Of a DNA stretch of 61,604 nt, positions 25,099-38,314 are shown one piece after another. The DNA is from Acidimicrobiia bacterium (lineage in GTDB: Bacteria > Actinomycetota > Acidimicrobiia > Spongiisociales > Spongiisociaceae), in contig JBFGLM010000029.1 of NCBI GenBank assembly GCA_041576165.1, forward strand, positions 1-61,604, in the 5' to 3' direction. Every line of letters starts with the position of its first letter. Positions within the stretch are counted from its first letter, which is position 1. The translations under genes and the position numbers were made by a program. The notes below the pieces were generated by a model. That model was not told the DNA's origin. It did not search any database and worked only from the letters and a program-made list of their open reading frames with translations.

Positions 25099-27289
25099 CG
25101 CCGCTCCCCAACAGCAGTGCCACCGTGGGAAGGACGAGATCCCCCCGCACGGAGTCAATGTCATCGGTAACCAATGACTGCCGGCCCGCTCCATGTTCCA
25201 ATCGCTTGACCTCGGCGCCGATCATGCGCCGCTCCGCTGCCGTGTACCGACTGAAAGCCCGGCGGACGAGCGGGAGCAGATCGTCGAACACCCCATCGCT
25301 CACGTCTGTGAGCCACTCATCGATCGCCGCCAGCAGGCCCGGGTCATGGAGGAGCAACATGGCATCACCGGTGAGGAAGCCGTCCAGCCACATGGCGCCC
25401 CGGCCCGGGTCCGCGCCCCGAGATAAGGAACGCGACACCGCAGCGAACGCCTCGTCCCGCTCGATCCACCCCGCGTCGAGCAGCAACCGGGTCGCATAGC
25501 CGGCCACGAGACCGTGCAGCGACCGCATCCCGGCCAATGACGAGACGGCTCCGAGCCACTGATCGACCGTCTCCCTGTCCTCGACCAATGCCACGCCGCG
25601 ATGGACCGACGCAACCTGATCGAACATGTCGGCGGCCGCATCGTCGTCGAGGCTGGCGCACGCTGCCGGCAATCCAATCGCCACTCGGGTGACCAACCCG
25701 GCCACCACCTCCAGGGTGGCCTGGTCACCTTGCCTGCGGACGTCGCCATAACGGGAGATGTGCGCAAGCGGCTCCACTGCCCGCATCAGAGAGCCGAGAT
25801 CATCGAGCGTGGCAGCCCGGCGCCGCACCGCGTCGAGTGCACCGACCACCGCGTCCGGCAGGTCGGCCAGCATGCCGTGCTCGATCAACTCCACCAGCCG
25901 GCTCAGGTCGGCCGTCTCCGCCGCTCCGGCGAGCACCGCGGCCGAGGCGACTCCGACCGTCGCCCCGTGGGCGGCAGCCTCGATCACCGAGATTTCGAAC
26001 TCCGGCTTCCACTCGAGCACCCATGTCTCCTTGAAGGTGCCGAGGCTGCGCCCCCCGAGCCCCGGCTCGGCCCAATGGATGCCCAGGATGGCCAAGCGGT
26101 GGAAGAGGTGGCTTCGCTCCAAATGGCTCTGCTTTCTGAGATCGAGGTCGACCACGTTTGCCTCGGCGGTTTTCACGAGCCGCAGGCGGCGGATGGTTGC
26201 GTCGACGTCTCGGGCCAGCGGAACAGCGGGCGCCCCGTCGGGGATGGAACCCATCTCCGTTCCGACATACAGATCCTCGGCAACGGCACTGAGACGCATA
26301 CGCGAGCCCTCGCACAGGACGGCGACCGCAGCATCATCGAGCTCGTGGATCCCCGCGACCGGGCGCTGCCGAACGGCGGCCAAAGTCTCAGCCAGCCGAG
26401 TCGCTTCGAGCACTGCGGCGGGCGAGCAGTCGTAGCCGCCGGAGCGTAAGAGTCGTGCGACTCGTGTCATCCAGCTGGGGACAGTGTCCTCACTCGGCGT
26501 TACGAACAGGTGCCGATACCAGGCGGGCGACGCGACGCCGGCCCCGTACCCGGATCGCAAGGCCAACCTGCTGGAGGTCCAAGGAACGAGAGTTGCCGCG
26601 ACCCTCACCTTCTCCAGGCCGGCGAGCAGCTCGTTGTCGGACTTCACACTGGGGAATCCGGCCGGGTCGAGGACCGGCGCATGCCACGCTCCGCATATGA
26701 CCGCCACCCGCCCAGCGCCTCGTTTCAGGGCGGCGCGTATGCGCTTGCGCATCGCCGCCTCCCGGACGAGCGTCAGCCGCGAATCCGGCTCGCTCTCCCG
26801 GAGGGCCGCCATTGCGCCGGTCACGGCCGAGAAGATCTCTGCACCGGGGTGGCGATGCTCGAGCACGTCCTCCCACCATCGCTCTGGATCGGCGAAACCG
26901 GCCGCCTCGGACAATCGCGCGATCGGGTCCGTGCGGATCTCGGCGTGCTCATCGGACTCGGAGTCAGGCCAGGCGAGCATGTTGGCCGCCGGCAGATCCA
27001 TGAAGCCGAGCTCGATATCCGCCGCTAACGCATATGTCACTGCCACGTACTCTGGGGAGAAGACCGCAAACGGATAGAACGCGGCTCTGGTGACGTCATC
27101 ACGGGCATAGACGAGTGCGGCCACGGGTGGGGTGGCAGAGCGGTCCGCCAGTAGTTCGGCGAGTGGCTCCAGCTCCTGGGGTCCTTCCACCAGTACCACG
27201 TCAGGCGTCATTCGGTCCAAGGCGGCGGCGACCGCCCGGGCTGAGCCCGGCCCGTGGTGACGGATCCCGAGGACGGCGACTTCGGTCAA
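25091..27289 (-). CDS. DUF5682 / YehM-like protein
   Basis: GIRHHGPGSAR, LVEGP, FSPE, REAAM, CGAWH, SGYGAG, GTFKETW; probable TTG start overlapping the upstream stop. Confidence 0.85.
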   Translation of the reverse strand: MTEVAVLGIRHHGPGSARAVAAALDRMTPDVVLVEGPQELEPLAELLADRSATPPVAALVYARDDVTRAAFYPFAVFSPEYVAVTYALAADIELGFMDLPAANMLAWPDSESDEHAEIRTDPIARLSEAAGFADPERWWEDVLEHRHPGAEIFSAVTGAMAALRESEPDSRLTLVREAAMRKRIRAALKRGAGRVAVICGAWHAPVLDPAGFPSVKSDNELLAGLEKVRVAATLVPWTSSRLALRSGYGAGVASPAWYRHLFVTPSEDTVPSWMTRVARLLRSGGYDCSPAAVLEATRLAETLAAVRQRPVAGIHELDDAAVAVLCEGSRMRLSAVAEDLYVGTEMGSIPDGAPAVPLARDVDATIRRLRLVKTAEANVVDLDLRKQSHLERSHLFHRLAILGIHWAEPGLGGRSLGTFKETWVLEWKPEFEISVIEAAAHGATVGVASAAVLAGAAETADLSRLVELIEHGMLADLPDAVVGALDAVRRRAATLDDLGSLMRAVEPLAHISRYGDVRRQGDQATLEVVAGLVTRVAIGLPAACASLDDDAAADMFDQVASVHRGVALVEDRETVDQWLGAVSSLAGMRSLHGLVAGYATRLLLDAGWIERDEAFAAVSRSLSRGADPGRGAMWLDGFLTGDAMLLLHDPGLLAAIDEWLTDVSDGVFDDLLPLVRRAFSRYTAAERRMIGAEVKRLEHGAGRQSLVTDDIDSVRGDLVLPTVALLLGSGDE

Positions 27290-28368
27290 TCGAGCTCCCG
27301 GCACGCTCGGTAGAGGTCGCGCCATGGCCGCCGCTCCCGGACGACGGTTTCTAGGTACTCGTCCCAGACCATGCGGTCCTGGACCGGGTCTTTCACAACT
27401 GCTCCCACCAGGCTGGCGGCCACGTCGGGGGCGCCCACCTCACCGTCGCCGAAGTGAGCCGCCATGGTCATCCCGTTCACCATCACCGAAATCGCCTCGG
27501 CCGTCGAGAGGGTGCTCAAGGGCGACTTCACGGTCGTGCGGCCGTCTTCGGTCACGCCGGAGCGCAGCTCCCGAAAGATCGTCACGATGCGCTGGATCTC
27601 GGACAGCGAGTCCAGCTCGGCCGGCAGCTCCAGGCTGCGCCCGATTTGAGCGACCCGGCTCTTTACGATCTCGACCTCCTCATCCGCGTTGTCCGGCAGC
27701 GGCAGTACCACCGTGTTGAAACGTCGCGACAGTGCGGAGCTCAGCTCGTTCACCCCCTTGTCCCGATCGTTGGCGGTGGCGATCACGTTGAAGCCCGGGA
27801 CCGCCTGTACCTCGGATCCCAGCTCAGGAATCGGCAATGTCTTCTCGGACAGAACCGTGATCAAAGCGTCCTGAACGTCGGACGGTATCCTCGTCAGTTC
27901 TTCGATGCGCACCACCGAGCCCTCCGCCATGCCCTTCATCACCGGTGACGGCACCAGCGCCGCCTCCGAAGGCCCCTCCGCCAGCAGCGCGGCGTAGTTC
28001 CATCCATAGCGAATCGCTTCTTCAGCCGTTCCCGCCGTGCCCTGCACGAGGAGTGTCGACGCACCCGAAATCGCCGCGGCGAGATGCTCGGACACCCAGG
28101 TCTTGGCGGTCCCGGGAACGCCGAGCAGCAGCAAGGCCCGGTCGGTAGCGAGGGAAGCGACGGCGACCTCGATCAGGCGGCGCTTACCGAAGTATTTGGG
28201 GGTGATCTCGACCCCGCCGACCGTCTCGCCTCCCATGAGGTAGCTCGTGACCGCCCAGGGCGACAGGCGCCAGTTGGGAGGACGGGGCCGGTCGTCCGCT
28301 TCGGCCAGCGCGGCCAGCTCGCCGGCGTAGGCCGTTTCGGCGTGGGCCCGGAGGACAGTTGTGGTCAT
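27286..28368 (-). CDS. MoxR-family AAA+ ATPase, YehL-like
   Basis: GVPGTAKT Walker A, RIEELTR Walker B, IATAN..D.GVNELSSALSRRF. Confidence 0.92.
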   Translation of the reverse strand: MTTTVLRAHAETAYAGELAALAEADDRPRPPNWRLSPWAVTSYLMGGETVGGVEITPKYFGKRRLIEVAVASLATDRALLLLGVPGTAKTWVSEHLAAAISGASTLLVQGTAGTAEEAIRYGWNYAALLAEGPSEAALVPSPVMKGMAEGSVVRIEELTRIPSDVQDALITVLSEKTLPIPELGSEVQAVPGFNVIATANDRDKGVNELSSALSRRFNTVVLPLPDNADEEVEIVKSRVAQIGRSLELPAELDSLSEIQRIVTIFRELRSGVTEDGRTTVKSPLSTLSTAEAISVMVNGMTMAAHFGDGEVGAPDVAASLVGAVVKDPVQDRMVWDEYLETVVRERRPWRDLYRACRELD

Positions 28369-29774
28369 GTGAACTCCTCTTCGACACTGGTGGTGAACGT
28401 GAGTTGGTTGATCGCTTCTCTCACGAGGCGATCAATCGAGTCGGGAAAGCGTCCGGCGAGCCGCACCAGCTGGTCGAGCACGGTGTGATCGGCCCGTCCC
28501 AGCAATGTGAACAGTGGTCGGAAGGAGGCGGCCGACTCACGTTTGATACCACCGGCCAGGTCGACCACCGCGAGCGACAGGGCAGGCGACCAGCGTTCTG
28601 GCCCTGCCGCCAGCAGCCCGGCGAGCTGGTTGATCCCGAGCTTGCGGAAGGGACGCTTGCCCTTCGCCGCCACGACGAGCCGATCGGTCGCCGTCGCCTC
28701 ATCCAGCAGTTCGAGCAAGGCCGGGTCGGGTGCCGCATCGAACAAGGCGGCCGCCCACGTCGCATCGCGCTGGCGCCGGACCGCATCAATCCATCCGGCG
28801 CGTACTTCCGACAATGGAGGCCGGGCGACCAGCTCCGCCGGCTCGCTGCCAGAGGCCTGCACCCACCAGTCGAGGGGCACCCCGGCAACGATCTGTCGCA
28901 GCCACCATGCCTGCCGTCCGGTGCCCGGTGGTGGCTTCTCGACGATCCCGTCCCGCCCGGCGGCGGCATCGAGCGTTTCGGGGAGTTCTACTGTGAGCTT
29001 GGTGCCAGAGCGTTGAACGGCCACCAGCGGATCGATCCGATCGGCCATCCGCCCGGACCACGCCGAGCCCGGTAGCTGCGCCAGCAGATCGACAGCAACC
29101 CGGCGGATCTTGGTGGACCGTTCGTCGAGCATGGATTCGAGCAGGGGCTCGTCGCCGAGTGACAAACCTTCTTCGAGCGCCCCATACAACTCGGCCCGGT
29201 CGGCGGCCGCGAGCCCCGCAACGGCCTCGACGATCGCCACCTGCCCCGCCGGCGGGTCAGTGCGACGCTGGCTGCGCAGCCAGTCTCCCAGCACGTCGAG
29301 CGGCGCCGACTCAGGATCGACCTCTGCAGCTTCGGCATCGGCGCCGGCCCAGCCCCAGCGCTTCGACATGGCGGCCATCCAGCGGCCACGCTCGCCGATG
29401 ACGGCACGCACCTCGGCTCGGATCGTGACGTCGCGGGTTCCGAGCTCAAGAAGCGGCCGCACCAATTGCGGTGGAACTATTCGATCTGCTCGGCGGCACG
29501 CGCCGAGCCAGGTGCGAGCCAGCACCGGCTTCGACGCCGTCCCGAAATGATCGCTGAGGGCTAGGTCGAGAAGCTGCGCGCCTTTGCCGCTGCATTCGAC
29601 CAGTGTCTCGGGTGATGCATGGTCCGACGTCAGCTGGCGGTGGACAATACGAATGCCGGCCCGACGTCGGGTGGCCTCCCGGCTGAGCATCGCGAGCAGC
29701 TCCGCCTCAGACAGACCCGGGCGGCGTTCGGTACCGACGAGTAGAGCCGCAACGCCGTCGTCCCAACGGGTCAC
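28365..29774 (-). CDS. DUF5691-like helical protein
   Basis: ALLVGTER, GERGRW, DEPLLE..LD.RS..R..A..LL; position between the SWIM and MoxR genes. Confidence 0.75.
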   Translation of the reverse strand: MTRWDDGVAALLVGTERRPGLSEAELLAMLSREATRRRAGIRIVHRQLTSDHASPETLVECSGKGAQLLDLALSDHFGTASKPVLARTWLGACRRADRIVPPQLVRPLLELGTRDVTIRAEVRAVIGERGRWMAAMSKRWGWAGADAEAAEVDPESAPLDVLGDWLRSQRRTDPPAGQVAIVEAVAGLAAADRAELYGALEEGLSLGDEPLLESMLDERSTKIRRVAVDLLAQLPGSAWSGRMADRIDPLVAVQRSGTKLTVELPETLDAAAGRDGIVEKPPPGTGRQAWWLRQIVAGVPLDWWVQASGSEPAELVARPPLSEVRAGWIDAVRRQRDATWAAALFDAAPDPALLELLDEATATDRLVVAAKGKRPFRKLGINQLAGLLAAGPERWSPALSLAVVDLAGGIKRESAASFRPLFTLLGRADHTVLDQLVRLAGRFPDSIDRLVREAINQLTFTTSVEEEFT

Positions 29775-31069
29775 AGCGCCACCAGCTGCTCGTCACGTGA
29801 CACCGCCAGCGGGCGAAACCGTGTTCCGTCCCATTCTCCGAACGCATCGACCGGGCCTGATGCGGCATGTATGACGAGGTCCCACGGCACGAAAGCCTCG
29901 GTGACTCGCACAGCGGCGCCCTCCGAGTCAACCAGCTCCAGTCGCCCATCGCCGACCTGGGGAATCACCGAGGCGAGGGTCATCGGCAGCGGACCGGCGA
30001 AAGGGTTGGCGGCCACCCATACGGCGGCACGGTCGAGGTTGTCCGACACAGTAGAGCCGCCGGGAAGGCCGGACACCGACCCAGTGACCTGCGGCTCAGT
30101 AGCGAACACCACCCGGGCCGGCTCCGATCCAGGATAAGCCGCGAGCGCGCAATCAATGACGGAGCCGACCACGTTGGCGACCCGGAGGCTGCCCGCGGCA
30201 GTGCTGAAGTCGAGCATGACCGCATGCGTACCGTCCGAACTCCTCAGCCAGGTCCGCTGCGCCAGGATCCGCTCCGTGAGGTCCTGGGAAACCCCGAGCA
30301 CGGTCCACGGTCCGGTCAGCCGGACACCGTTCTCGAGCACCTCCGCCTGCGCCCGGGACCACCCGAGATAGGTGCGGAGGTCACCGAACAAGGCTTCGGG
30401 CAGACTGTCGCGCCGCTTCCAGCCCTGCACTGCCAGGTGCCATCGTGACACCTCTCCAAGCAACAGCTCGAGCCAGCCGTCGGCGGCCAGGCCGGCGGCG
30501 GCCACGCGCACCCTGTCGGCCAGCCCGGGTAGCTGTGAGTCGACCAATCGAGCAGCCGTCCGCTCCCAGAACTCGGGCGGCTGAGTGCGGGCAGAAGCGA
30601 GACCTTGCCCGGCGAGGTCGAGGAGCCACTGTTCGAACTCGGCAGCACCCTGATCCATCTTCGCCAGGCGCTCTTCGAGCCGACGAGCTTGCGCCTCAGG
30701 GTCGGGCAGTGCTTTTTCGCTCTTCTTGACGGCGCGCTGCGCCCGTCCCTCCGCCCACTCCGACGCAAAGTCGGCCGGTGCCGCCATGTCGGCGACAACA
30801 CCGTCGGCCTCCGCCCACAGCATGAGGAGCGCAAGGCCGTGTTTGCAGGGGAACTTGCGTGATGGACACGTGCACTTGAAGGCCGGTCCGTTCAGGTCGA
30901 CCGACACCTGATACGGGCTCTTGCCGCTGCCCTGGCACTTGCCCCATGCGAGAGATTTCGTCGCTCCGAGGTCGGACCATGGACCCGGCTTCGCGAGACT
31001 CCGCGCCGCCTTGACGGAGCGCTCGTCCGGCGCCAGCTTCTCGACCTGGGCGCGTGTCCACCTGACCAT
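29771..31069 (-). CDS. SWIM zinc-finger protein, YehQ-like
   Basis: LAPD..S, WGKCQGSGKSPY, CTCPSRKFPCKH; likely start at 31069 or 31078. Confidence 0.88.
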   Translation of the reverse strand: MVRWTRAQVEKLAPDERSVKAARSLAKPGPWSDLGATKSLAWGKCQGSGKSPYQVSVDLNGPAFKCTCPSRKFPCKHGLALLMLWAEADGVVADMAAPADFASEWAEGRAQRAVKKSEKALPDPEAQARRLEERLAKMDQGAAEFEQWLLDLAGQGLASARTQPPEFWERTAARLVDSQLPGLADRVRVAAAGLAADGWLELLLGEVSRWHLAVQGWKRRDSLPEALFGDLRTYLGWSRAQAEVLENGVRLTGPWTVLGVSQDLTERILAQRTWLRSSDGTHAVMLDFSTAAGSLRVANVVGSVIDCALAAYPGSEPARVVFATEPQVTGSVSGLPGGSTVSDNLDRAAVWVAANPFAGPLPMTLASVIPQVGDGRLELVDSEGAAVRVTEAFVPWDLVIHAASGPVDAFGEWDGTRFRPLAVSRDEQLVAL

Positions 31070-31216
31070 TCCGGGCATTATTGCTGCGTATCGGCAGCCT
31101 TCCGCCCGGCCTTCAGCATGTCGCTTCTCCGTCAATGGACCACGAATACCGGCTGCTCGACCTTGAATCTGCCCGCGCCGGCCAGTTGGCGAGACACCAT
31201 GGGGCCGGGCGTAGAC

Positions 31217-34200
31217 TCAGCTCGCGGCGGCGAGCGCATACGCGAGCCACTGTTCGACCAGCGGGCGGTTCTGCGCGATCCACTCCTCAGCGTGGCGCCT
31301 TACGTCTTCTTCACCGTTCTCGCCCCGGCCGAAACGCAGGCTTTGGGCGGCGATGTCCTCCGGGTTGAGTTTGACGACCTCGAACAGGGCCACCGCGGCC
31401 GGATTGGACTCGGCGAAATCTCTGTTGGCGGTGATTCGAATATCCTCGATCGACCAGCCCAGCCAGCAGGGATCGGCGGTGCATTCGTCCCCGAGCCTGG
31501 CCGGGCTGGCGTCGGAGTATTTCAGCCCACTCGCAGTCGTGCCATCCAGCGCGAACTCCTGAGCCCCGAGACTCAACCAACGGACGTTGTCACCCGGGAT
31601 CAGCCTGGCCAGGTACCCAGAAGGACTCCAGCTGTACTGGAGGGCAGGCTGACCTTCACTCACGCGCTCCGCCGCGGCATCGAACAGTTCGTCGTAGTCG
31701 GCTTTCACCTGTTCCAGGTTGGACCAGTCATTCTGGGCAATCATTTCGTCGATGACGTCGTCGCAGGTCCACGACTCGGGGCACCCGAAGATGTCGCCCA
31801 CACCGTTCCCGTCGACGTCGAAGAGAGCGGCGATTGCGGGGTCGTCATTGATCTGGGCCAGGGAGGTGATACCCAGCTCGTCGGCCACCGATCTCGTGAC
31901 CATCAGGCCCTGCAGCCCGGCTCCGATGAGTTCCTGCCCGATGACAACCAGGTTCTCGCCGACTCGGGTGCCGTCGTCCAGCTGCTTGTCATGGTGGGCT
32001 TCGTGTTGTGGATACCAGCCATTGGGCCAGAAGTCGACGGCGCCCCGCGACATCGACACGTAGGCGTCCGACGGCGACTGCTCGCTGTCCGCTGGGTCAG
32101 TGACGGTGTATCCCAGTTCCTCGAGCAAAGCCGCGTACACGGCTGCCTGGAAATACCCGCTCGCCCAATTCGCGCGGCCAACGGTGACCGTGGTGCCGAC
32201 GCCCGGCAACGGCGGGGCGAGCGCCACAGGGTCTGGCTCGGGCACGCTGAGATCACCGACTGCGTACTCGGCGCAGGTGGCACGGTATGCCGTGTCCCGG
32301 GGACCGAACAGCTCCCATTCCGCCGGAGTGAGATTGCGGCCCGCAGCCGAACAGGCGACGTCGACCCAACGTTCGACGTCAACGTCCCACACGAGCGCGT
32401 TGCCTTCGAACGGCGTCACGACCCTCAAGATCTCGCCGGCAACCACCGCATAGGGCAGCCCACCTGGCTGGCTCGGGAATGGCTGACCCAGCTGCCGTCC
32501 CGACTCGTAATGCCACACTCTCGCCACGCCGTCCGCCGCCGAGAACATCCATTCCCCATCGGGGGTGAAAACGGGCGCCTGGGCCGCATGCTCTGTGGCG
32601 ACGTCCGCATCTTGGAGGTTGCGCACGTGCTCCAACGTCACCGCATTGAGCACCCAGATGTCACCCTCTCCGCCGACTGCCACGATTTCTTGCTCGTCGG
32701 GTGTAAACGCCGCGCCCGAAATGCCACCCGGCATGTCAGGCAGCGCTGCCTCTGTTCCGGCGTTCAAGTCGACCACCAGGCCCGAGCTCGGCGCGAAACT
32801 GACCGATGCGGGTCTCGGAACGAGGAACGTCATGACCAACCGGGAGCCGGCAGTATCGAAGTCGGCCGTTCTGATCATTCGCGACATCGAGTAGACAGGC
32901 TGGCGCGTGGCGGTGTCCTCGACCACGGACGAGGTGAAACTTTGCGCGTATGCCACGAGGCGACCGTCATCGCTCCAAGCGGGGAGAACCGACGAGTCGA
33001 GATCGAGGTCGAGTTTCCGCCCGGACGGGAACTCAAAAGCTTCCTGGGTTGCGAAGAATTCCGAGGCCCTGAACAAAATGTCAGCATGAGCCGCGGGTAG
33101 GAATCGAAAGTAGCCCTCCGCCGTCTCGAACGAGGCGACCTCCAACTCAACGTCAAATGCCAGACGAGTGGGCGGGTCGGTTCCGAGGTCCCACATGCCT
33201 TCCTCGACCAATCCGGCCGCCAGCATCCCACCGTCCCGGCCGAGCGACGGCAGCACTGACAAGCCTATGGGCACAGAGGAGGCAACCAGCCTGCTGCCGT
33301 CGAGCGCACCGATGACGACGCCCGCGCCGGAGGCGACCGCAAACCTGGTTCCGTCCGGATCAACTGCCACGGCATTGGTCTGGTTCTGCTGGGTGTCGAG
33401 CACGAAACCGGAGGGCGCCTCGCGGGTTATTCCGCCACTCGTCAACTCGTCGAGCCGCAATGCGATCACCCGCCCGTCGCTCGTGAGCGTCACAGCCCTT
33501 CCCGCCCCGGCGGCCGCGAATCCGCCGATGCTGCCGGCCTGTTCGGGCTCGTTGCGGCCGGTCGGCACCGTGGCCAAGGACAGTCGCTCGCCATCGGACA
33601 GCCGCCATCGGGTTACGAATATGTCACCGGCGACCACGAGCACGTCCGGCGCCTCCGCGTCGAACCAGAAGTAGCGAGGCTCCTGTGCATATCGGAAGTC
33701 GTCATAGGTACCCCAGGAGTTGACTATCTCGGGGCCGGCGGGAGTCAGGTCCGCCACGTGCCATGCCCGCAGAAAGACTCCGCCGGCGGATACGATCGTC
33801 TGTCCTGCGGGGTCGAAGCGGAGCCAGCTCACGCCCTCGAGATCGTATGCCGGGAGATTGAGGGAGACATTCTCGTCGAGGGTGATATCACCCGGATCAC
33901 GTGGCGGATTCGCGAGAACAGATGCGAGCTCCGTGCCCGTCGAGCGGTCGAATAGCCGGAGCCAGCCATCGGGGAATCCAACAGCCACCAACGACCCATC
34001 GTCGGTGATGGCAGCGGCTCGACTCCCATCGCCTGCCGGGAAGGCGCGGATACCGCCGTTGACCACATCGGCCAGATACAGGGCCCCCGCTGCATCGGAA
34101 ATCGCAACGATGCCCGCGGGCGACGTGGCGCGGATACCGCTCGCCGGCGGTCGCGTCTCCGCAGAGATGATCCACGTCGCCGATGGAGGTGTGAGGTCGA

Positions 34201-37200
34201 TCTCGACGGGAAGTCTGACGATTTCCCCGGAACCCAACGACATGACGTGCACCTCGGTCTTGGTGGCACCCACGAGCGTGTCGCCCTCCACCCAGTGCAC
34301 GTCCTGGTAGGCATCGCCTGCGCCCAACACGCCGTGGTAGGGGCCTGCTTCGACCAGCACCCGCTGCAGGGCGCTCAGCCCCTCGAGCCCCGCATCGCGC
34401 CGGAACGCTTCCACGGCCATCAGGAGCGAAACCTGATAGTTGGAGTCCGCAATGAACGCGGCTTCGCTGCCGAGGCGTTTGGTCTCGGTGTCGTAGGCCA
34501 GTTGAGCTGCCTCGCGCCGCTGGGTCAGCGCATAGGCGCCGAACGCGGTCGCGATGAGCGCGGCAGCCGCCAGGGCTCCGGTGATCCGCCTCCGGCGCAA
34601 CGCCCTGCGCCGGTTGAGGTCGGCATCCCGCTCTCGGCTCACCTCCAGGAACGATCGTTCGCTGTCGTTCAGAGCCAGGTCAGAACCGCTGGCCCAGGTG
34701 TCGAATTGGAAAAGTCGTCCACCTGTCGGCAGATAGGTTGCGTCCCGGCCGGAGTCCTCCCATTCTTGGATGGCCGCGTCGAGCCGTCTGCGAAGAACTA
34801 GGTCGTCCCGCTGGCCGCGCAGCCACGAACCCAGCCGATCCCATTCCCGGAGCAGCGCTTCATGTGCGACCTCCACCGTCGGAGCCCTCGAGGTTGGATC
34901 GGAGTCGAAGGTGATCAGCCGATGAGCCCCAAACTGCTGCAGTGCCTCATTGAGTGCCGCCTGGTCGACCTCGAGCGTCGCCAGTTCGGCTCTGGTGACC
35001 CTGCGCCGAACGTATTGGGCTCCCTCCGCGACCGTCACCAGCCGCAGGAAGGCTTGCCGGATGGCGTTCTGCCCGGGTGCAGCCAGCGCGCCGTAGAGCT
35101 GCTCGGCCCGAGCAGCCAGCGCGCCGAGCACGCCACCGGACGCGTGGTACGTGTCCAGCGTGAGGACATCGGTCGATCGCCGGGCGAAAAGCTCGGTCAG
35201 GGTGTATTGCAGGAGCGGCAGGCCGCCCGTCTGGTCCGAGACATCCCGGACGATCTGCGCGGCCAGACCGGATTCGATCTGGAGGCCCACCGCTGCAGCC
35301 GGCCCTTCGATCGCCGCCGCGATCCCCGCCTCATCTGGCATCGTCACGGGCACGAGGCCCTCCTCAACGATCGCACCGAATTCGGGATACGCCAGTGGAC
35401 GGTCGAAGAAGTCGGCCCGCAGGGCAACAACCACGCGCAGCCGGGATCGCGGGTCAGTCACGGCGGCGACCAGGCTGTCGAGAAACAGCGACCGGGTTTG
35501 CTCTGAGGCCACCATCGAGAAGAGCTCCTCAAACTGGTCGATGAGCAGCACTAGTTCGGTTCCGCCGGGAAGGATCGACTTCAAGACCTGCGCAAGTCCT
35601 CGTCTGCCCGAGAGAAGTTGGTCGCTGATCGGAATCTGATTGACAGCGACCCGTCGCAAAGCCGCCTCGAGTTCCTCGAAAGGATGTGCCCCGGGGAACA
35701 TTTCGGTAACGAGCGTCGAATGGACGCCGGACTCGAGCCGGGCAGCCAGACCGGCCTTCATGGCACTCGACTTGCCCGAACCTGACGGTCCAACTACAGC
35801 CACGAGTCTGCGGTCGGTCAGCGTCCGCTGCATACGATCAATGAGGTCGTCGCGGCCAAAGAAGTCGCCGGCATCCGCCACCTGAAACGCCTGCAGACCC
35901 TTGAACGGGTTACGCAGATCTGTTCGTTCTGTAGCAGCCGGTCCCGCCAGCTCGACCACATCGCTACCGAGCACCTGGCGCAGCGCCCGCAGGAAGTCCT
36001 CGACCCGGGTCGACCCATCGAGCGCTCGCTCGAACACGGCCGTCAGCCCGGTCGGGGCGTGATCGGGGGGCAGCGGCTCGTAGCCCCGAGTGGAAAAGAC
36101 GGGAGGCGCGCCCAGCAGGATCTCATGTGCCATCGCAACGAATCCCCGACAGTCGTCGGCTTCGTCTCGGGCGACGCCGCCGACCACAAAATCCGTGAGG
36201 TAGGCGTCGCCGGACCGGCGCACCACCACCGCCTGCGGCGCCACGTCGCCGTGCACGACCCCAGACCGGTGGGCGGCCGCCAGCGCATCGCCGATCTGAC
36301 CGATGAGCTTCACTGCGGTGGATCTGTCGGGCCGCTGGCTCGCCAGATAGTCATTCAGCCGCTCACCCTCGATCCACTGCGTTACCTGATAGACGCGCCC
36401 GGGCTCCCGCCAGGTGTCGTGTATATGGGCGATGTGGGGACTGTCTATCTGGGCGACCCGAACGGTGTCAGCTTCGAAACGCGCGATGAACCCCGGATCA
36501 TTGGCTCGTGCCGCCTCGACCACGCGAACCGTGACTTCACGTCCCATGGAACGCTGATATCCGCGGTAGAGGGTTCCTTTGGCGGTCGTCGAGATGACTT
36601 GGCGCAGCTCGTATCCGCGCACTGCTCTCACCGAGCCCGGTGTTGGATCGTAAGTGAAGTCGAGCGATGCGTCCCGGGACAGAATCAAATCCTCCAGCGA
36701 CGCCAGCTGGTCTGACGGCTCGAGCCCCATCTCCTCGATGAACAGCTCGCGTGTGCGAGCGAAGACCCGAAGAGCCTCTCCGTGCCGCCCCGATCGGTAG
36801 AGCGCCAGCATGTGCTGGGCCCGGAGGCGCTCTCGGAGCGGATATTCAACAGTGAGGCTCTCCAACTCTCCGATGAGTGTCTCATGCCGCCCGAGCGCCA
36901 GGTCGGCATCGATGCGGTCTCCGAGCGCGACTATGCGCAGCTCAGACAATCGAGTGATCTCGGGACGCAGCACCGGCTCCCCGTCGAGGTCGGCGTAGAC
37001 AGTTCCCCGCCACAGCCCGAGGGCGTCGGTCAACCGGCCTGAAGCTTGTTCCGGATCGACCGCGATCAGCGGCTTCGACCCCTCCACCATCTCCGAGAAA
37101 CGCCGCTCGTCCACCTGAGAGTCTTCAACTCGGAGGCAGTAGCCGCCGCGCTCGGTTGCGAGGCTCCCGCCGACTGTGCTGCGGAGGTGATGTACGTACC

Positions 37201-37417
37201 CTTGGAGGGTCTTGCGCGCAGTCGCCGGGACCGAATCTCCCCACAGCCCGTCGATGAGGGCGCCCGTCGAGACACTCCGACCCCTGGCCGCCACGAGTAT
37301 TGCGAGCACCAGCCGTTGCTTCGGCCCGCCGAGTTTGAGCTCTCGGCCGTCCGCCCAGACCGCTAGCGGACCCAGAACCTGGAAACCGGGGCTGAGAGCA
37401 TGCCCGTATCCCGCCAT
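31217..37417 (-). CDS. Multidomain regulator: SARP wHTH-BTAD, pseudokinase, nSTAND1 NTPase, TM, WD40-like propeller, ProX-type betaine-binding domain
   Basis: FQVLGPL, YPLRE, LALYRSGR (BTAD); HGD/DFV kinase remnant; NPFKGL, GPSGSGKSS, IDQFEELF, LPLLQ, HEALL (nSTAND1); TM helix; WD-like repeats; C-terminal GWYPQH / GCPESWTC / YSWSP. Start at 37417 or 37426. Confidence 0.88.
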   Translation of the reverse strand: MAGYGHALSPGFQVLGPLAVWADGRELKLGGPKQRLVLAILVAARGRSVSTGALIDGLWGDSVPATARKTLQGYVHHLRSTVGGSLATERGGYCLRVEDSQVDERRFSEMVEGSKPLIAVDPEQASGRLTDALGLWRGTVYADLDGEPVLRPEITRLSELRIVALGDRIDADLALGRHETLIGELESLTVEYPLRERLRAQHMLALYRSGRHGEALRVFARTRELFIEEMGLEPSDQLASLEDLILSRDASLDFTYDPTPGSVRAVRGYELRQVISTTAKGTLYRGYQRSMGREVTVRVVEAARANDPGFIARFEADTVRVAQIDSPHIAHIHDTWREPGRVYQVTQWIEGERLNDYLASQRPDRSTAVKLIGQIGDALAAAHRSGVVHGDVAPQAVVVRRSGDAYLTDFVVGGVARDEADDCRGFVAMAHEILLGAPPVFSTRGYEPLPPDHAPTGLTAVFERALDGSTRVEDFLRALRQVLGSDVVELAGPAATERTDLRNPFKGLQAFQVADAGDFFGRDDLIDRMQRTLTDRRLVAVVGPSGSGKSSAMKAGLAARLESGVHSTLVTEMFPGAHPFEELEAALRRVAVNQIPISDQLLSGRRGLAQVLKSILPGGTELVLLIDQFEELFSMVASEQTRSLFLDSLVAAVTDPRSRLRVVVALRADFFDRPLAYPEFGAIVEEGLVPVTMPDEAGIAAAIEGPAAAVGLQIESGLAAQIVRDVSDQTGGLPLLQYTLTELFARRSTDVLTLDTYHASGGVLGALAARAEQLYGALAAPGQNAIRQAFLRLVTVAEGAQYVRRRVTRAELATLEVDQAALNEALQQFGAHRLITFDSDPTSRAPTVEVAHEALLREWDRLGSWLRGQRDDLVLRRRLDAAIQEWEDSGRDATYLPTGGRLFQFDTWASGSDLALNDSERSFLEVSRERDADLNRRRALRRRRITGALAAAALIATAFGAYALTQRREAAQLAYDTETKRLGSEAAFIADSNYQVSLLMAVEAFRRDAGLEGLSALQRVLVEAGPYHGVLGAGDAYQDVHWVEGDTLVGATKTEVHVMSLGSGEIVRLPVEIDLTPPSATWIISAETRPPASGIRATSPAGIVAISDAAGALYLADVVNGGIRAFPAGDGSRAAAITDDGSLVAVGFPDGWLRLFDRSTGTELASVLANPPRDPGDITLDENVSLNLPAYDLEGVSWLRFDPAGQTIVSAGGVFLRAWHVADLTPAGPEIVNSWGTYDDFRYAQEPRYFWFDAEAPDVLVVAGDIFVTRWRLSDGERLSLATVPTGRNEPEQAGSIGGFAAAGAGRAVTLTSDGRVIALRLDELTSGGITREAPSGFVLDTQQNQTNAVAVDPDGTRFAVASGAGVVIGALDGSRLVASSVPIGLSVLPSLGRDGGMLAAGLVEEGMWDLGTDPPTRLAFDVELEVASFETAEGYFRFLPAAHADILFRASEFFATQEAFEFPSGRKLDLDLDSSVLPAWSDDGRLVAYAQSFTSSVVEDTATRQPVYSMSRMIRTADFDTAGSRLVMTFLVPRPASVSFAPSSGLVVDLNAGTEAALPDMPGGISGAAFTPDEQEIVAVGGEGDIWVLNAVTLEHVRNLQDADVATEHAAQAPVFTPDGEWMFSAADGVARVWHYESGRQLGQPFPSQPGGLPYAVVAGEILRVVTPFEGNALVWDVDVERWVDVACSAAGRNLTPAEWELFGPRDTAYRATCAEYAVGDLSVPEPDPVALAPPLPGVGTTVTVGRANWASGYFQAAVYAALLEELGYTVTDPADSEQSPSDAYVSMSRGAVDFWPNGWYPQHEAHHDKQLDDGTRVGENLVVIGQELIGAGLQGLMVTRSVADELGITSLAQINDDPAIAALFDVDGNGVGDIFGCPESWTCDDVIDEMIAQNDWSNLEQVKADYDELFDAAAERVSEGQPALQYSWSPSGYLARLIPGDNVRWLSLGAQEFALDGTTASGLKYSDASPARLGDECTADPCWLGWSIEDIRITANRDFAESNPAAVALFEVVKLNPEDIAAQSLRFGRGENGEEDVRRHAEEWIAQNRPLVEQWLAYALAAAS

Positions 37418-37439
37418 AGGGAGCATCGTCGACCCGTCC

Positions 37440-37608
37440 GGTTGACGAACGGTTGGAGCCGCGATTCCTGTCTCTCGCAGCCTACGCAGTCAGCTCTCCC
37501 CTATGGCGGCCCGATTGGCGAGGCCGAGATCGGCCGCCACCGGTTTGACCCGTTCCAACCGAACTCCAACCAGGGCTGGGAGGTTGTCCAACCGGCCGGT
37601 CGGACGGT
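37440..37608. promoter_or_regulatory. Divergent SARP-type operator region with TCCAACC heptamers
   Basis: TCCAACC at 37554, 37565 and 37587 (+); inverted TCCAACC at 37451-37457 and GTCAACC at 37440-37446 (-). Confidence 0.65.
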
Positions 37609-37614
37609 GCGGTC

Positions 37615-38229
37615 ATGCCCATCGTCATCCGCCTTCTCGCCGCAGCCGCAGCCATCGCAACCGCTATCGCCAACCCAGTACCGATGCAGCATCGCCACCA
37701 GACCCCAGATCCGGACCCCGCTGGCCGGGCGGCGGTCACCGTCATCGGAGCGAACTCCACTCAAGCGGCGGCGGTAGAGGAGGCACTCCAGCGTTTCGCT
37801 CAGGCAGGGCTGGCGCTTCCGCCGCTGGTCATCGAATACGCCGCCACAACTGATGCCTGCCGGGGCCACGCCGGCCTCTACTCCCCCGCCCCGAACGGCC
37901 ATTCACCGACCGACCGCATAACAATGTGCAGCTCCCTGCGGCTCTTCCTCCTGCACGAACTCGCTCATGCCTGGGGCTACCACAGCCTCACCGACGATAC
38001 GCGCCGCAGCTTCATGGACCGCTGGGCACTGCAGCGGTGGAACGACCACAACGACAGCTGGTATGACCGGGGCACTGAAAAGGCGGCGCACACGATCGCC
38101 TACACGCTGGCTCTCGACGCTCCCACGGACGACCCCGACATTCTCCGTTTCGTCTGCGGGTACGAGTTGCTCACCGGGAATCCGATTCCGGTCGAGGCCG
38201 GCGCGTCGTGCCATCCGGGCACCAACTGA
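37615..38229 (+). CDS. Small secreted protein with HExxH zincin-like motif
   Basis: Ala-rich signal peptide, LLHELAHAW, downstream TEKAA, several Cys. Confidence 0.7.
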   Translation: MPIVIRLLAAAAAIATAIANPVPMQHRHQTPDPDPAGRAAVTVIGANSTQAAAVEEALQRFAQAGLALPPLVIEYAATTDACRGHAGLYSPAPNGHSPTDRITMCSSLRLFLLHELAHAWGYHSLTDDTRRSFMDRWALQRWNDHNDSWYDRGTEKAAHTIAYTLALDAPTDDPDILRFVCGYELLTGNPIPVEAGASCHPGTN

Positions 38230-38314
38230 GAAGGTCAGACCACCAGAGCCGTCGGCCCGACCACGGCGGGCGGCTGAGTCTTCGATGCCCCGACCATGCT
38301 GGGGCCCGTCCCGG

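What the first reader, a model, noticed from the sequence alone, without database searches (positions are those of the whole stretch)
31217..37417. Membrane-spanning SARP-STAND receptor with an appended ProX-type betaine-binding domain
Seen: one ~2070-aa ORF encodes SARP wHTH+BTAD, a kinase remnant, an nSTAND1 NTPase (GPSGSGKSS / IDQFEE), a TM helix (RRRRITGALAAAALIATAFGAYAL) and WD40-like repeats. The motif that usually ends such proteins (ACSAAGRNLTPAEW...YRATC) is followed by a Pro-rich linker and a further ~330-aa domain (~32200-31217) with no signal peptide. Established: E. coli ProX binds glycine/proline betaine in a Trp65/Trp140/Trp188 cation-pi box near a CxxxWxC disulfide loop. The equivalent motifs are all present here: GWYPQH, GCPESWTC, YSWSP. 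No proV/proW transporter genes are adjacent. Inference: a transporter-derived binding protein has been recruited as the extracellular sensor of an NLR-like one-component transcription factor, so that a quaternary amine outside the cell drives STAND activation and SARP-dependent transcription. I know of no described example.
Basis: partly seen in the sequence, partly recalled or inferred. Interest (0 to 1): 0.88.

Follow-up and report, generated by a model that had tools for sequence, protein, structure and literature searches.

The report
Membrane-spanning SARP-STAND receptor with ProX sensor
One giant gene of a marine-sediment actinobacterium joins a DNA-binding activator, an NLR-like ATPase switch, a membrane helix, an outside double propeller and a betaine-binding domain, and looks like a new way for bacteria to turn an outside chemical into gene activation.

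Summary
Window 31217-37426 (-) is one 2069-aa ORF. In order it has SARP (wHTH+BTAD), a pseudokinase, nSTAND1, one TM helix, a tandem WD40-like ectodomain, the family's usual C-terminal motif, a Pro-rich linker and a ProX/OpuAC domain. The ProX Trp box, His and both Cys pairs are intact.

The junction is bridged by independent contigs from two studies. Five distinct fused orthologues exist. In four further relatives the same ProX clade is a separate lipoprotein gene directly downstream of the receptor. That links the two parts functionally and places the receptor's C-terminal half outside the cell. No ABC transporter genes lie beside any of them.

New here: SARP-type boxes (TCCAACC at 11/22-nt spacing, then N9, a GAnnnT -10-like hexamer and N6-7 to the start codon). 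They precede the receptor gene in the window and three relatives, and the divergent gene for an exported HExxH protein in the window and two orthologues.

Best reading (about 0.6): an autoregulated, membrane-spanning STAND transcription factor whose extracytoplasmic ProX module senses a quaternary amine. Ligand binding, topology and signalling are inferred, not shown. Literature searches found no description. Novelty: new variant of known kinds.

The parts
31217..37426 (-). Whole receptor ORF, 2069 aa from the first ATG, stop included. The promoter geometry suggests the real start is Met4 at 37417.
36641..37387 (-). SARP domain (OmpR-type wHTH plus BTAD), residues 14-262
   Evidence: BTAD 134.6 bits; Trans_reg_C 25.5 bits; AfsR model NF053617, 185.8 bits over residues 14-262, far below its whole-protein cut-off because only the N-terminus matches
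36152..36616 (-). Pseudokinase remnant, residues 271-425: N-lobe to the DFG position only. Catalytic Lys->Arg, HRD->HGD, catalytic-loop Lys->Ala and Asn->Ala, DFG->DFV.
   Evidence: alignment to PknA 4ow8 stops at the DFG position
34739..35908 (-). nSTAND1 NTPase, residues 507-896. Walker A GPSGSGKSS and Walker B-like DQFEE are invariant in the 4 fused proteins aligned.
34526..34585 (-). Predicted single transmembrane helix, residues 948-967, preceded by RRRALRRRR
   Evidence: a poly-Arg run plus a hydrophobic helix at the matching place in all 19 family proteins checked; Kyte-Doolittle 1.69-2.85
32357..34474 (-). Ectodomain, residues 985-1690: three helices, then 57 beta-strands, enough for about 14 blades (two propellers)
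   Evidence: AF2 pLDDT 83.7, pTM 0.82; Foldseek: tandem WD40 proteins 2ymu, Apaf-1 3shf/3sfz, Utp21 4nsx; E 1e-19 to 6e-24; TM-scores only 0.24-0.39
32273..32356 (-). Family end motif ACSAAGRNLTPAEWELFGPRDTAYRATC, residues 1691-1718, with the invariant pair C1692/C1718. Helical in the model.
32210..32272 (-). Pro-rich linker, residues 1719-1739, with no hydrophobic signal-like stretch
   Evidence: Bridged by contigs of runs X3 and X5 with no differences.
31220..32209 (-). ProX/OpuAC-type binding domain, residues 1740-2069: Trp box W1804/W1886/W1933, H1808, Cys pairs 1882/1888 and 1982/1987
37440..37457 (-). Putative SARP box of the receptor's own promoter: TCCAACC-N4-GTCAACC
37425..37430 (-). 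-10-like hexamer GACGAT, 9 nt after the box and 7 nt before the ATG of Met4 (37417). Fits a leaderless mRNA.
   Evidence: inference
37554..37593 (+). Putative SARP box of the divergent gene: TCCAACC three times, starts 37554, 37565 and 37587 (spacing 11 and 22)
37603..37608 (+). -10-like hexamer GACGGT, 9 nt after the last heptamer (8 nt if the repeat is read as TCCAACCG) and 6 nt before ATG 37615
   Evidence: inference
37615..38229 (+). Divergent gene P0219, 204 aa: signal-peptide-like N-terminus, HELAHAW (HExxH), invariant Glu155 and Cys82/Cys105. Likely the transcriptional target.

Best explanation
The gene encodes a membrane-spanning one-component receptor.

Inside the cell sit an N-terminal SARP DNA-binding and activation domain, a catalytically dead kinase remnant and an nSTAND1 NTPase, the NLR-like oligomerisation switch. 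One helix crosses the membrane, N-in and C-out. Outside sit an Apaf-1-like tandem WD40 ectodomain and, on a flexible Pro-rich tether, a ProX-type domain. Its aromatic box should bind a trimethylammonium-type compatible solute such as glycine betaine or proline betaine.

Proposed mechanism (inferred). Ligand-closed ProX docks on, or re-arranges, the WD40 ectodomain. This changes the clustering of receptors in the membrane and allows the cytoplasmic nSTAND1 modules to oligomerise. Oligomerisation presents SARP domains side by side to TCCAACC direct repeats. Those repeats replace the -35 element of two divergent leaderless promoters. One drives the receptor gene itself (positive autoregulation). 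The other drives a small exported HExxH zincin-like protein.

In some relatives the same ProX is a separate lipoprotein encoded directly after the receptor gene. The fused form is therefore a receptor with its co-receptor welded on.

Shown by computation: the domain content, conservation of the fusion, the split lipoprotein forms, the conserved pocket and the conserved operator architecture.

Inferred: topology, ligand, docking, activation, and which genes are switched.
For: 1. Architecture.

2. The fusion is real.
- Four proteins with the whole architecture were found among proteins of 1137-3621 aa in the 5.8-billion-protein search, the query included.
- A fifth distinct one is P0218 from G102.
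- The C105 ORF of the same bin is 1726/1734 identical to the N-terminal part of fused P0004.
- A 1602-nt contig of run X3 covers 31715-33000. A 203-nt contig of run X5, from another study, covers 32155-32357. Both show 0 differences.
- The ProX part is 63-71% identical among the fused proteins, against 54-63% for the whole proteins.

3. Receptor-ProX partnership.
- Among 79 related loci from the species-representative genomes, a ProX hit (E<=1e-10) lies directly downstream of the receptor in 6. Two are fused (L030, L034). Four are split (L031, L032, L046, L038). Each split form has a signal peptide and a lipobox Cys (G216).
- Of the 6 loci at least 45% identical to the window's ectodomain, 5 have ProX. 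The sixth (L033) ends 198 nt after the match.
- Receptor-linked ProX domains form one clade of 8 rows, SH-like support 98, in a FastTree of 142 ProX domains.

4. Outside location.
- Positive-inside charge bias.
- The helix is conserved in all 19 family proteins checked.
- All six Cys after the helix form three invariant pairs.
- The split partners are lipoproteins.

5. Pocket. The Trp box, His and both Cys pairs are present in 8/8 rows of the receptor clade, whereas 8-9 of 52 stand-alone relatives have lost each Trp.

6. No ABC transporter partner beside the window gene, nor in L020, L030, L031 or L046. The bin has one betaine-type ABC permease, on C3, with its own SBP of another OpuAC clade.

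7. Operator.
- Three exact TCCAACC at 11/22-nt spacing.
- Only 8 loci in the 5.1-Mb bin have three exact heptamers at 11-nt multiples, and 0 of 20000 shuffles of the 188-nt spacer give one.
- It is the only place in the bin with TCCAACC pairs at 11 or 22 nt.
- The layout heptamer-N4-heptamer-N15-heptamer-N9-GAnnGT-N6-ATG, 61 nt from the first heptamer to the ATG, recurs before the HExxH gene in G102 and G053.
- TCCAACC-N4-(T/C/G)(C/T)CAACC-N9-GAnnAT/GT-N6/7-start precedes the receptor gene in the window, L030, L046 and L038.
- This matches the published SARP rule: direct repeats 11 or 22 bp apart, with the 3' repeat 8 bp from the -10 (PMC10936776, introduction passage).
Against: - No experiment and no RNA data bear on this.
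- The TM call rests on hydropathy and charge only. The window's helix is the least hydrophobic of the 19 checked (1.69). No dedicated TM predictor was available.
- How one helix could couple an ectodomain to a NOD is unknown. WD40 tandem propellers are typical of cytoplasmic STANDs.
- The operator pattern was not found before the receptor genes of L031 and L032/G216.
- Exact 6- or 7-mer repeats were found before only 1 of the 3 other receptor-adjacent HExxH paralogues in the bin: C15 yes, C11 and C46 no.
- The HExxH gene is absent from the flanks of L030, L031, L032, L046 and L038. It is therefore not a universal output.
- ProX domains of a sister clade sit at the C-termini of many non-signalling surface proteins: peptidase, LRR-SLH, RCC1-SLH, cadherin/fn3. 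A ProX domain on a big exported protein need not be a signal input.
- The -10 hexamers and leaderless starts are read by eye. The sigma-70 consensus scan found no promoter in 30900-38300.
Confidence: 0.6

Rival explanations
1. NLR-like surveillance receptor. The real signal is a macromolecule, such as a foreign protein or envelope component of a competitor or phage, caught by the WD40 ectodomain. The output is a secreted HExxH enzyme. ProX is a secondary or modulatory input, or recognises a choline- or betaine-decorated polymer rather than a free osmolyte.
For: - nSTAND1 was defined in conflict systems (PMC8195603, passage).
- The bin holds at least 8 further SARP-kinase-nSTAND1 paralogues about 40% identical to the window protein.
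- 3 of them, like the window gene, have an HExxH-family gene beside them.
- The WD40 ectodomain is kept in the large ProX-less family.
- A sister ProX clade decorates many surface proteins.
- P0005 carries another, unknown 210-aa tail at the same place.
Against: - The free-ligand pocket, including the His that pairs with His69 of E. coli ProX, is intact in 8/8 rows.
- The NCBIfam ProX equivalog score is above its cut-off.
- ProX accompanies 5 of the 6 closest receptor loci; the sixth (L033) is too short to tell. That fits an obligate partner better than an optional extra.
- No known defence genes were seen among the neighbours scanned, but PADLOC was not run.
Confidence: 0.17
2. Tethered transport or scavenging protein. 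The ProX domain or lipoprotein still feeds a transporter encoded elsewhere (ABC or BCCT), or merely holds solute at the surface. Its attachment to the receptor is an anchoring solution with no signalling role.
For: - SBPs of Gram-positives must be tethered.
- In the same bin a ProX-clade SBP gene follows a BCCT transporter gene on C46.
- Tandem and multi-copy ProX proteins are common in the family's genomes.
- One betaine-type ABC importer exists on C3.
Against: - The adjacency to this one receptor subfamily is conserved in both fused and split forms, across loci whose other neighbours all differ.
- The split forms already have their own lipid anchor, so they need no receptor as a tether.
- The C3 importer has its own adjacent SBP.
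Confidence: 0.1
3. The whole protein is cytoplasmic. The hydrophobic helix is buried or only membrane-associated, and ProX senses the intracellular pool of accumulated compatible solute.
For: - The window's helix is only moderately hydrophobic (1.69).
- WD40 sensors of STANDs are normally cytoplasmic (Apaf-1 among the top matches).
- The fused ProX has no signal peptide.
Against: - Four split orthologues or relatives carry lipoprotein signals.
- Three invariant Cys pairs lie after the helix, and none of the Cys before it is invariant.
- The poly-Arg run and the helix are conserved in 19/19 proteins checked, with Kyte-Doolittle up to 2.85.
Confidence: 0.06

Closest known systems
AfsR of Streptomyces coelicolor (a 'large' SARP: SARP + NOD + TPR)
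   Same: - N-terminal SARP domain followed by a STAND NTPase and a repeat-type sensor.
- Target promoters with direct repeats 11 or 22 bp apart close to the -10 (PMC10936776, abstract and passages).
- The AfsR model matches residues 14-262.
   Different: - AfsR is soluble and cytoplasmic, with a TPR sensor, and is controlled by ATP and AfsK phosphorylation.
- Here the NTPase is nSTAND1 (Pfam NACHT only at E 0.088, 13.1 bits against a 26.7 cut-off; no NB-ARC match listed). A TM helix follows it. The sensor is a WD40 tandem plus ProX, predicted to lie outside the cell.
ToxR-like membrane-integrated activators (CadC, ToxR, TcpP, VtrA)
   Same: - Works alike: an OmpR-type wHTH in the cytoplasm, one TM helix, an extracytoplasmic sensor, input and output in one protein (PMC5430869, abstract in the search listing).
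- VtrA is activated via oligomerisation (PMC5693285, title in the listing).
   Different: - Apart from the shared OmpR-type wHTH (Trans_reg_C, PF00486, 25.5 bits), no Pfam or NCBIfam match is to a family named for ToxR, CadC, TcpP or VtrA.
- Those proteins are about ten times smaller, have no NTPase switch, and their sensors are not SBP domains.
E. coli ProX (PDB 1r9l), the periplasmic glycine betaine/proline betaine binding protein of ProU
   Same: - Sequence match E 9.9e-39 over the whole mature protein.
- Equivalog score above the cut-off.
- Trp box, His and the CxxxWxC loop are aligned.
- The role of Trp65/Trp188 is given in a passage of PMC8601584. That of Trp140, and the His69/backbone contacts, are recalled from the original structure paper, which I did not read.
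   Different: - Not a free periplasmic protein: no own signal peptide, and covalently tied to a receptor.
- No proV/proW beside it.
- An extra Cys pair (1982/1987) lies in an insertion absent from the E. coli chain.
CosB/CosT of Halobacterium salinarum, and other SBP-dependent transducers (LuxP/LuxQ and others)
   Same: An OpuAC-family binding protein that recognises glycine betaine, choline and carnitine and acts through a membrane transducer rather than a transporter (table in PMC8050422, passage). This is the best analogue of the split receptor + lipoprotein pairs.
   Different: The output there is chemotaxis through an MCP-type transducer. Here it is a STAND NTPase plus a SARP transcription domain, and in the window the SBP is fused.
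Apaf-1
   Same: A STAND NTPase followed by two WD40 propellers. Apaf-1 chains 3shf and 3sfz are among the top Foldseek matches of the ectodomain model. That its propellers clamp cytochrome c is recalled, not tested here.
   Different: Cytosolic, with a CARD effector and no membrane helix. TM-scores to the model are low (0.23-0.34).

Membership tests
SARP family (OmpR-type wHTH + BTAD) | BTAD domain | tested here: met
   PF03704, 134.6 bits, residues 105-249, full profile
SARP family (OmpR-type wHTH + BTAD) | N-terminal OmpR-type winged helix | tested here: inconclusive
   Trans_reg_C 25.5 bits against a 26.2 cut-off. The AfsR N-terminal region matches at 185.8 bits over residues 14-262.
SARP family (OmpR-type wHTH + BTAD) | Targets with direct repeats 11 or 22 bp apart, the 3' repeat about 8 bp from the -10 | tested here: met
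   In silico only. The rule is as stated in PMC10936776. Binding itself was not tested.
STAND NTPases, nSTAND1 clade | Full-length match to the nSTAND1 model, with Walker A and B | tested here: met
   PF20703, 366.2 bits, profile 1-378/379. GPSGSGKSS and DQFEE are invariant in alignment A1.
STAND NTPases, nSTAND1 clade | Nucleotide-dependent oligomerisation | not testable with these tools
   Needs biochemistry.
ProX (ProU substrate-binding protein, NF008334 / OpuAC PF04069) | Sequence score over the curated cut-off | tested here: met
   219.2 against 215 bits; OpuAC 127.9 bits
ProX (ProU substrate-binding protein, NF008334 / OpuAC PF04069) | Aromatic (Trp) box and the disulfide loop | tested here: met
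   (8/8 rows of the receptor clade)
ProX (ProU substrate-binding protein, NF008334 / OpuAC PF04069) | Free exported protein with its own signal peptide, serving an adjacent ProV/ProW ABC importer | tested here: not met
   No signal peptide at the junction. No ABC genes among the 10 neighbours scanned or beside the relatives. It is therefore a ProX-type domain, not the ProU subunit.
ProX (ProU substrate-binding protein, NF008334 / OpuAC PF04069) | Binds glycine betaine or proline betaine | not testable with these tools
   Needs ITC or fluorescence.
Hanks-type Ser/Thr protein kinases | Catalytic Lys, HRD Asp-loop Lys/Asn, DFG, complete C-lobe | tested here: not met
   K->R, HGD, K->A, N->A, DFV; the match to PknA ends at the DFG position. 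P0003 keeps VAIK, HRD and DFG, and the C46 paralogue scores higher on Pkinase.
ToxR-like receptors | wHTH in the cytoplasm, single TM, sensor outside | tested here: inconclusive
   The topology is predicted from hydropathy, charge, Cys pairs and lipoprotein partners. No homology beyond the wHTH. It works like this family but is not a member.

The most novel reading that the evidence does not exclude
This is the founding example of transmembrane NLR-like receptors: STAND switches that read the outside of the cell.

A lipoprotein-derived binding protein, loaded with a quaternary amine, would play the part that cytochrome c plays for Apaf-1. It would dock between the two extracellular WD40 propellers. 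That would license oligomerisation of the cytoplasmic nSTAND1 ring across a single helix and so assemble SARP domains on TCCAACC boxes of leaderless promoters.

By extension, the much larger ProX-less nSTAND1-TM-WD40 family of Actinomycetota and Chloroflexota would be extracellular sensors with interchangeable cytoplasmic outputs (SARP, kinase, cyclase).
Probability: 0.3. Interest if true: 0.88.

Novelty: new variant of a known kind. Interest (0 to 1): 0.75.

Why it matters
STAND/NLR proteins are textbook intracellular sensors. STAND transcription factors such as MalT, GutR and AfsR read cytoplasmic ligands. A STAND protein with its sensor outside the membrane would be a third way, besides two-component systems and ToxR-like proteins, to carry an extracellular chemical signal to a promoter.

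It would also give a tractable model for how a NOD can be switched across a membrane.

The case is unusually testable:
- the candidate ligand class is narrow;
- the binding domain is a well-behaved fold;
- natural fused and split versions exist for comparison;
- the predicted operator and its two promoters are defined to the base.

It also assigns an outside location, and hence a different biology, to a large and so far generically annotated family. NCBI names P0002 a 'BTAD domain-containing putative transcriptional regulator'.

For marine and sediment Acidimicrobiia it points to osmolyte-type compounds acting as signals, not only as nutrients or osmoprotectants.

Tried and rejected
- Complex prediction of the G216 receptor ectodomain (661 aa, alignment A3) with its separate ProX (323 aa, alignment A4): no answer, score 0.00 in both runs, controls not folded. 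This is no evidence either way.

- RNA evidence: no RNA holder was listed for 31500-33000. Nothing can be said on expression or on the 5' ends.

- Run X6 covers only up to 32248 and from 32473. Run X7 covers only short pieces. Neither bridges the junction.

- HExxH protein P0219:
  - no Pfam hit at E<=0.01;
  - only a chance-level NCBIfam hit;
  - PDB profile search best E 0.95;
  - the AF2 model is confident (pLDDT 82.1), but Foldseek found no PDB match at E<=0.001 among its 159 matches at E<=10;
  Its fold class and activity stay open.

- The idea that the downstream SWIM / DUF5691 / MoxR / DUF5682 / VWA cluster belongs to the system was rejected. It was not among the genes scanned by Pfam beside the receptor of G216, L030, L031 or L046.

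- The idea that the ProX domain is an assembly chimera from the paralogue on C105 was rejected, because of the independent contigs and the independent fused orthologues.

- Direction of evolution stays unresolved. The receptor tree puts fused forms basal (quick search, long outgroup branches flagged by the tool). But a distant receptor (L038) is split.

- Literature:
  - 'nSTAND1' gave 6 papers (5 listed), none on SARP or SBP fusions;
  - 'OpuAC' + 'sensor domain' gave 5 papers (4 listed), which are general SBP surveys;
  - 'SARP, WD40, STAND, transmembrane' gave 8 papers (7 listed), none describing this;
  - 'BTAD, NTPase, WD40, Actinobacteria' gave 0 papers;
  - PMC7159879 holds none of nSTAND, SARP or BTAD in its main text.
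InterPro architectures, DeepTMHMM and SignalP could not be run.

Full report
THE OBSERVATION

Window 31217-37426 (-) is a single 2069-aa frame with gene-like codon bias.

Domains from Pfam and NCBIfam:
- a SARP domain: BTAD 134.6 bits, and the AfsR N-terminus model 185.8 bits over residues 14-262;
- a partial protein-kinase domain;
- a full-length nSTAND1 NTPase (366.2 bits);
- weak WD40-type hits;
- a C-terminal OpuAC domain (127.9 bits). It passes the curated cut-off of the E. coli ProX equivalog (219.2 against 215 bits) over profile positions 21-330, that is, the mature protein.

Against solved structures the last 330 residues match E. coli ProX 1r9l at E 9.9e-39. In the printed alignment W65, W140, W188, H69 and C136/C142 of the chain pair with W1804, W1886, W1933, H1808 and C1882/C1888.

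The kinase part is a remnant. Aligned to PknA (4ow8), the catalytic Lys is Arg, HRD is HGD, the loop Lys and Asn are Ala, and DFG is DFV. The match stops at the DFG position.

TOPOLOGY

The most hydrophobic 19-residue window of the protein is 948-966 (Kyte-Doolittle 1.69). Eight Arg/Lys lie in the 15 residues before the helix and two after it.

A poly-Arg run followed by a hydrophobic helix sits at the matching place in all 19 family proteins I checked (1.69-2.85).

The six cysteines after the helix form three pairs, 1692/1718, 1882/1888 and 1982/1987. All are invariant in the four fused proteins. The two cysteines before the helix are not.

An AF2 model of residues 985-1722 (alignment of 14 rows) has pLDDT 83.7 and pTM 0.82. 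It shows three helices, 57 strands (enough for about 14 blades) and two terminal helices that carry the end motif. Foldseek ranks tandem WD40 proteins first, among them 2ymu, Apaf-1 (3shf, 3sfz) and Utp21. E-values run from 1e-19 to 6e-24, but TM-scores are low, 0.24-0.39.

IS THE FUSION REAL AND CONSERVED?

The motif AC..AGRN.T..EW...C was found in 17 of the 19 proteins. It lies 3-17 residues from the end in 12. It is followed by 351-382 residues (ProX) in P0001-P0004, and by 210 residues of an unknown domain in P0005.

A search restricted to proteins of 1137-3621 aa found four with a ProX region like the window's, the query included. A fifth distinct one, P0218, came from genome G102.

The ORF on contig C105 of the same bin is 1726/1734 identical to the N-terminal part of fused P0004. 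It runs off the contig two residues after the motif.

Logan contigs of run X3 (1602 nt, covering 31715-33000) and of run X5 from another study (203 nt, covering 32155-32357) cover the linker (32210-32272) without a difference.

The ProX region is better conserved among the fused proteins than the whole protein: 63-71% against 54-63%.

THE SPLIT FORMS

In G216 the receptor ends four residues after the motif. Twelve bases later, a gene starts whose product has a signal peptide, a lipobox (LFVAC) and a ProX domain.

A scan of species-representative genomes returned 79 related loci. tblastn with the ProX domain (E<=1e-10) hit six of them, always directly downstream of the receptor on the same strand:
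- L030 and L034 are fused;
- L031, L032, L046 and L038 are split, each with a lipobox cysteine.

L032 and L034 repeat G216 and G102. L030 is the locus of P0002 and L031 that of P0007. That leaves five distinct fused and four distinct split pairs.

Of the six loci at least 45% identical to the window's ectodomain, five have ProX. The sixth ends 198 nt after the match.

L038 is a distant receptor (28% identity) with a distant ProX (40%), so the partnership predates the subfamily.

In a FastTree of 142 ProX domains, the receptor-linked ones form one clade of 8 rows with SH-like support 98.

A quick IQ-TREE of receptor cores places the fused forms as a basal grade. The ProX-less polypeptides form a derived clade (support 98) that contains the two split forms represented in the tree, P0007 (L031) and P0013 (G216). 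The tool flagged long outgroup branches.

The subfamily is rare. A query from the second propeller matched 3 of 401 genomes sampled from the order.

No ABC transporter genes lie beside the window gene, beside G216, or beside L030, L031 and L046.

The bin holds one betaine-type ABC importer, on C3, with its own SBP of another OpuAC clade.

THE POCKET

In the alignment of the 142 domains, the three Trp, the His and both Cys pairs are present in 8 of 8 rows of the receptor clade. By contrast, 8-9 of 52 stand-alone relatives have replaced each Trp. The conservation is therefore not automatic.

THE OUTPUT: NEW HERE

The 188-nt spacer between the receptor gene and the divergent gene 37615-38229 holds three exact TCCAACC heptamers at starts 37554, 37565 and 37587. 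Statistical context:
- TCCAACC occurs 736 times in the 5.1-Mb bin, but pairs at 11 or 22 nt occur only here.
- Only 8 loci in the bin have three exact heptamers at multiples of 11 nt.
- 0 of 20000 shuffles of the spacer produce one.

After the last heptamer come 9 nt, GACGGT, 6 nt and the ATG.

The same layout recurs before the homologous gene in G102 and G053, although there it lies downstream of the receptor: three (C/T)T(C/G/A)AAC(C/T) heptamers at +0, +11 and +33, then N9, GA(C/T)CGT, N6 and ATG, with 61 nt from the first heptamer to the ATG.

On the other strand, TCCAACC-N4-GTCAACC-N9-GACGAT-N7 precedes the ATG of Met4 of the receptor (37417). Near-identical boxes with the same spacings precede the receptor start in L030, L046 and L038. 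The pattern was not found in L031 or L032.

In the bin, the strict architecture occurs only twice, the better match being this promoter.

This is the published SARP site rule: direct repeats 11 or 22 bp apart, with the 3' repeat 8 bp from the -10 (PMC10936776, passage). I read it as positive autoregulation plus activation of the divergent gene, from leaderless promoters. That reading is an inference.

THE DIVERGENT GENE

P0219 (204 aa) has a signal-peptide-like start, HELAHAW, an invariant Glu and invariant Cys residues.

Homologues lie beside three further receptor paralogues of the bin (C11, C46, C15) and beside the fused receptors of G102 and G053. The other four copies lie near contig ends.

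They are absent from the flanks of L030, L031, L032, L046 and L038.

No family or fold could be assigned.

CONTEXT FOR PROX DOMAINS

The representative-library search gave 707 relatives (E<=0.001) of the ProX domain. Many of the best 150 carry it at the extreme C-terminus of long proteins.

The nine long proteins scanned were:
- a fragment of this receptor family;
- tandem ProX proteins;
- surface proteins with trypsin+PPC, LRR+SLH, RCC1+SLH or cadherin/fn3/RCC1 domains;
- a Ser/Thr kinase with a TM helix, Peripla_BP_4 and OpuAC.

These belong to another clade than the receptor-linked ProX.

In the bin itself, one ProX-clade gene follows a BCCT transporter gene. Another ProX domain is the N-terminal domain of a GluR0-like ligand-gated channel.

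ProX-type domains are thus reused widely in this lineage. This supports a sensor role here, but it also keeps non-signalling roles open.

COMPARISON AND NOVELTY

The parts are known:
- large SARPs such as AfsR;
- ToxR-like membrane activators;
- SBP domains as sensors (PMC9602780);
- an OpuAC-family SBP signalling to a transducer, CosB/CosT (PMC8050422).

The combination is not described in any paper my searches found: a STAND NTPase with its sensor beyond a membrane helix, an SBP as fused or adjacent co-receptor, and a SARP output. Supplements and InterPro were not available.

I rate it a new variant of known kinds. Confidence is about 0.6 in the mechanism as stated. It is higher (about 0.85) for the architecture, the reality of the fusion and the outside location.

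Noticed in passing
G000 contig C46:20527-22611 (-) = L005:5128-7212: A 694-aa protein joins an N-terminal ProX/OpuAC domain to SBP_bac_3 plus ion-channel domains (Lig_chan, Ion_trans_2). It is a GluR0-like ligand-gated channel with a betaine-type binding domain in front. About a dozen representatives of 650-730 aa carry the ProX domain at the N-terminus of a longer protein; for 8 of them marks a hydrophobic segment at about residues 430-540. None of them was scanned by Pfam.
   Followed up: partly
G000 contig C46:17605-20483 (+) = L005:2206-5084: A BCCT betaine/carnitine/choline transporter gene is followed directly by a stand-alone ProX-clade binding-protein gene. This is an unusual pairing of an SBP with a secondary transporter. 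A SARP-kinase-nSTAND1-WD40 paralogue (1852 aa) lies about 6 kb downstream.
   Followed up: partly
window 23953-31135 (-): Five-gene cluster directly downstream of the receptor, 81-nt gap, same strand: SWIM zinc-finger protein, DUF5691, MoxR-type AAA_5 ATPase, DUF5682 (761 bits) and a CoxE-type VWA protein. It was not seen beside the orthologous receptors scanned by Pfam, so it is probably an independent unit.
   Followed up: partly
window 37615-38229 (+); G000 C11:2296-2937, C15:87591-88187, C46:26052-26675, C94, C30, C13, C67; L010:2671-3306; L011:1107-1715: An uncharacterised family of small exported HExxH proteins with conserved Cys pairs and no Pfam family, repeatedly encoded beside SARP-kinase-nSTAND1 receptors. 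C30 carries two copies in one ORF. C13 has the domain at the end of a 458-aa protein.
   Followed up: partly
G000 C15:88230-88258: CGCGTG three times at 11-nt spacing, 43-71 nt upstream of the HExxH paralogue that precedes another receptor paralogue. This is a second candidate SARP box with a different sequence.
   Followed up: no
G000 C1:33557, C2:2698, C8:84861, C9:21021, C35:37445, C73:13091, C102:4184: The only other places in the bin with three exact heptamers at multiples of 11 nt. C2 and C102 share CGCGGAC. They may be operators of other SARP regulators.
   Followed up: no
proteins P0096, P0097, P0104, P0113, P0164: ProX-type domains sit at the extreme C-terminus of very different exported proteins: trypsin+PPC, LRR+SLH, SLH+RCC1, cadherin/fn3/RCC1. 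One Ser/Thr kinase carries a TM helix, Peripla_BP_4 and OpuAC. This suggests a promiscuous surface module in this lineage.
   Followed up: partly
protein P0005, residues about 1705-1914: A sister receptor carries a different 210-aa tail with no Pfam match after the same end motif and a similar linker start (CSQYP...). The position appears to be a slot for exchangeable modules.
   Followed up: partly
protein P0003 (alignment A1, columns about 270-455) and L005:11487-17045: Some family members keep intact kinase motifs (VAIK, HRD, DFG) and carry an extra insertion of about 190 aa between BTAD and the kinase. The window protein has lost both.
   Followed up: no
L046:2377-2879: A second TCCAACC-N4-TCCAACC box lies 36 nt (2395-2430) before a small ORF. 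That ORF encodes a membrane-anchored protein with three tandem copies of a 24-residue repeat (NQGPNVGLAPDWTSQEAARVAATT). It is a possible further target in that genome.
   Followed up: no
genomes of the window's family, e.g. G129:C1:2149166-2156234: ProX-clade genes are strongly expanded. 25 of 28 genomes of the family have matches, often as tandem two-domain proteins and clusters of up to five copies.
   Followed up: no
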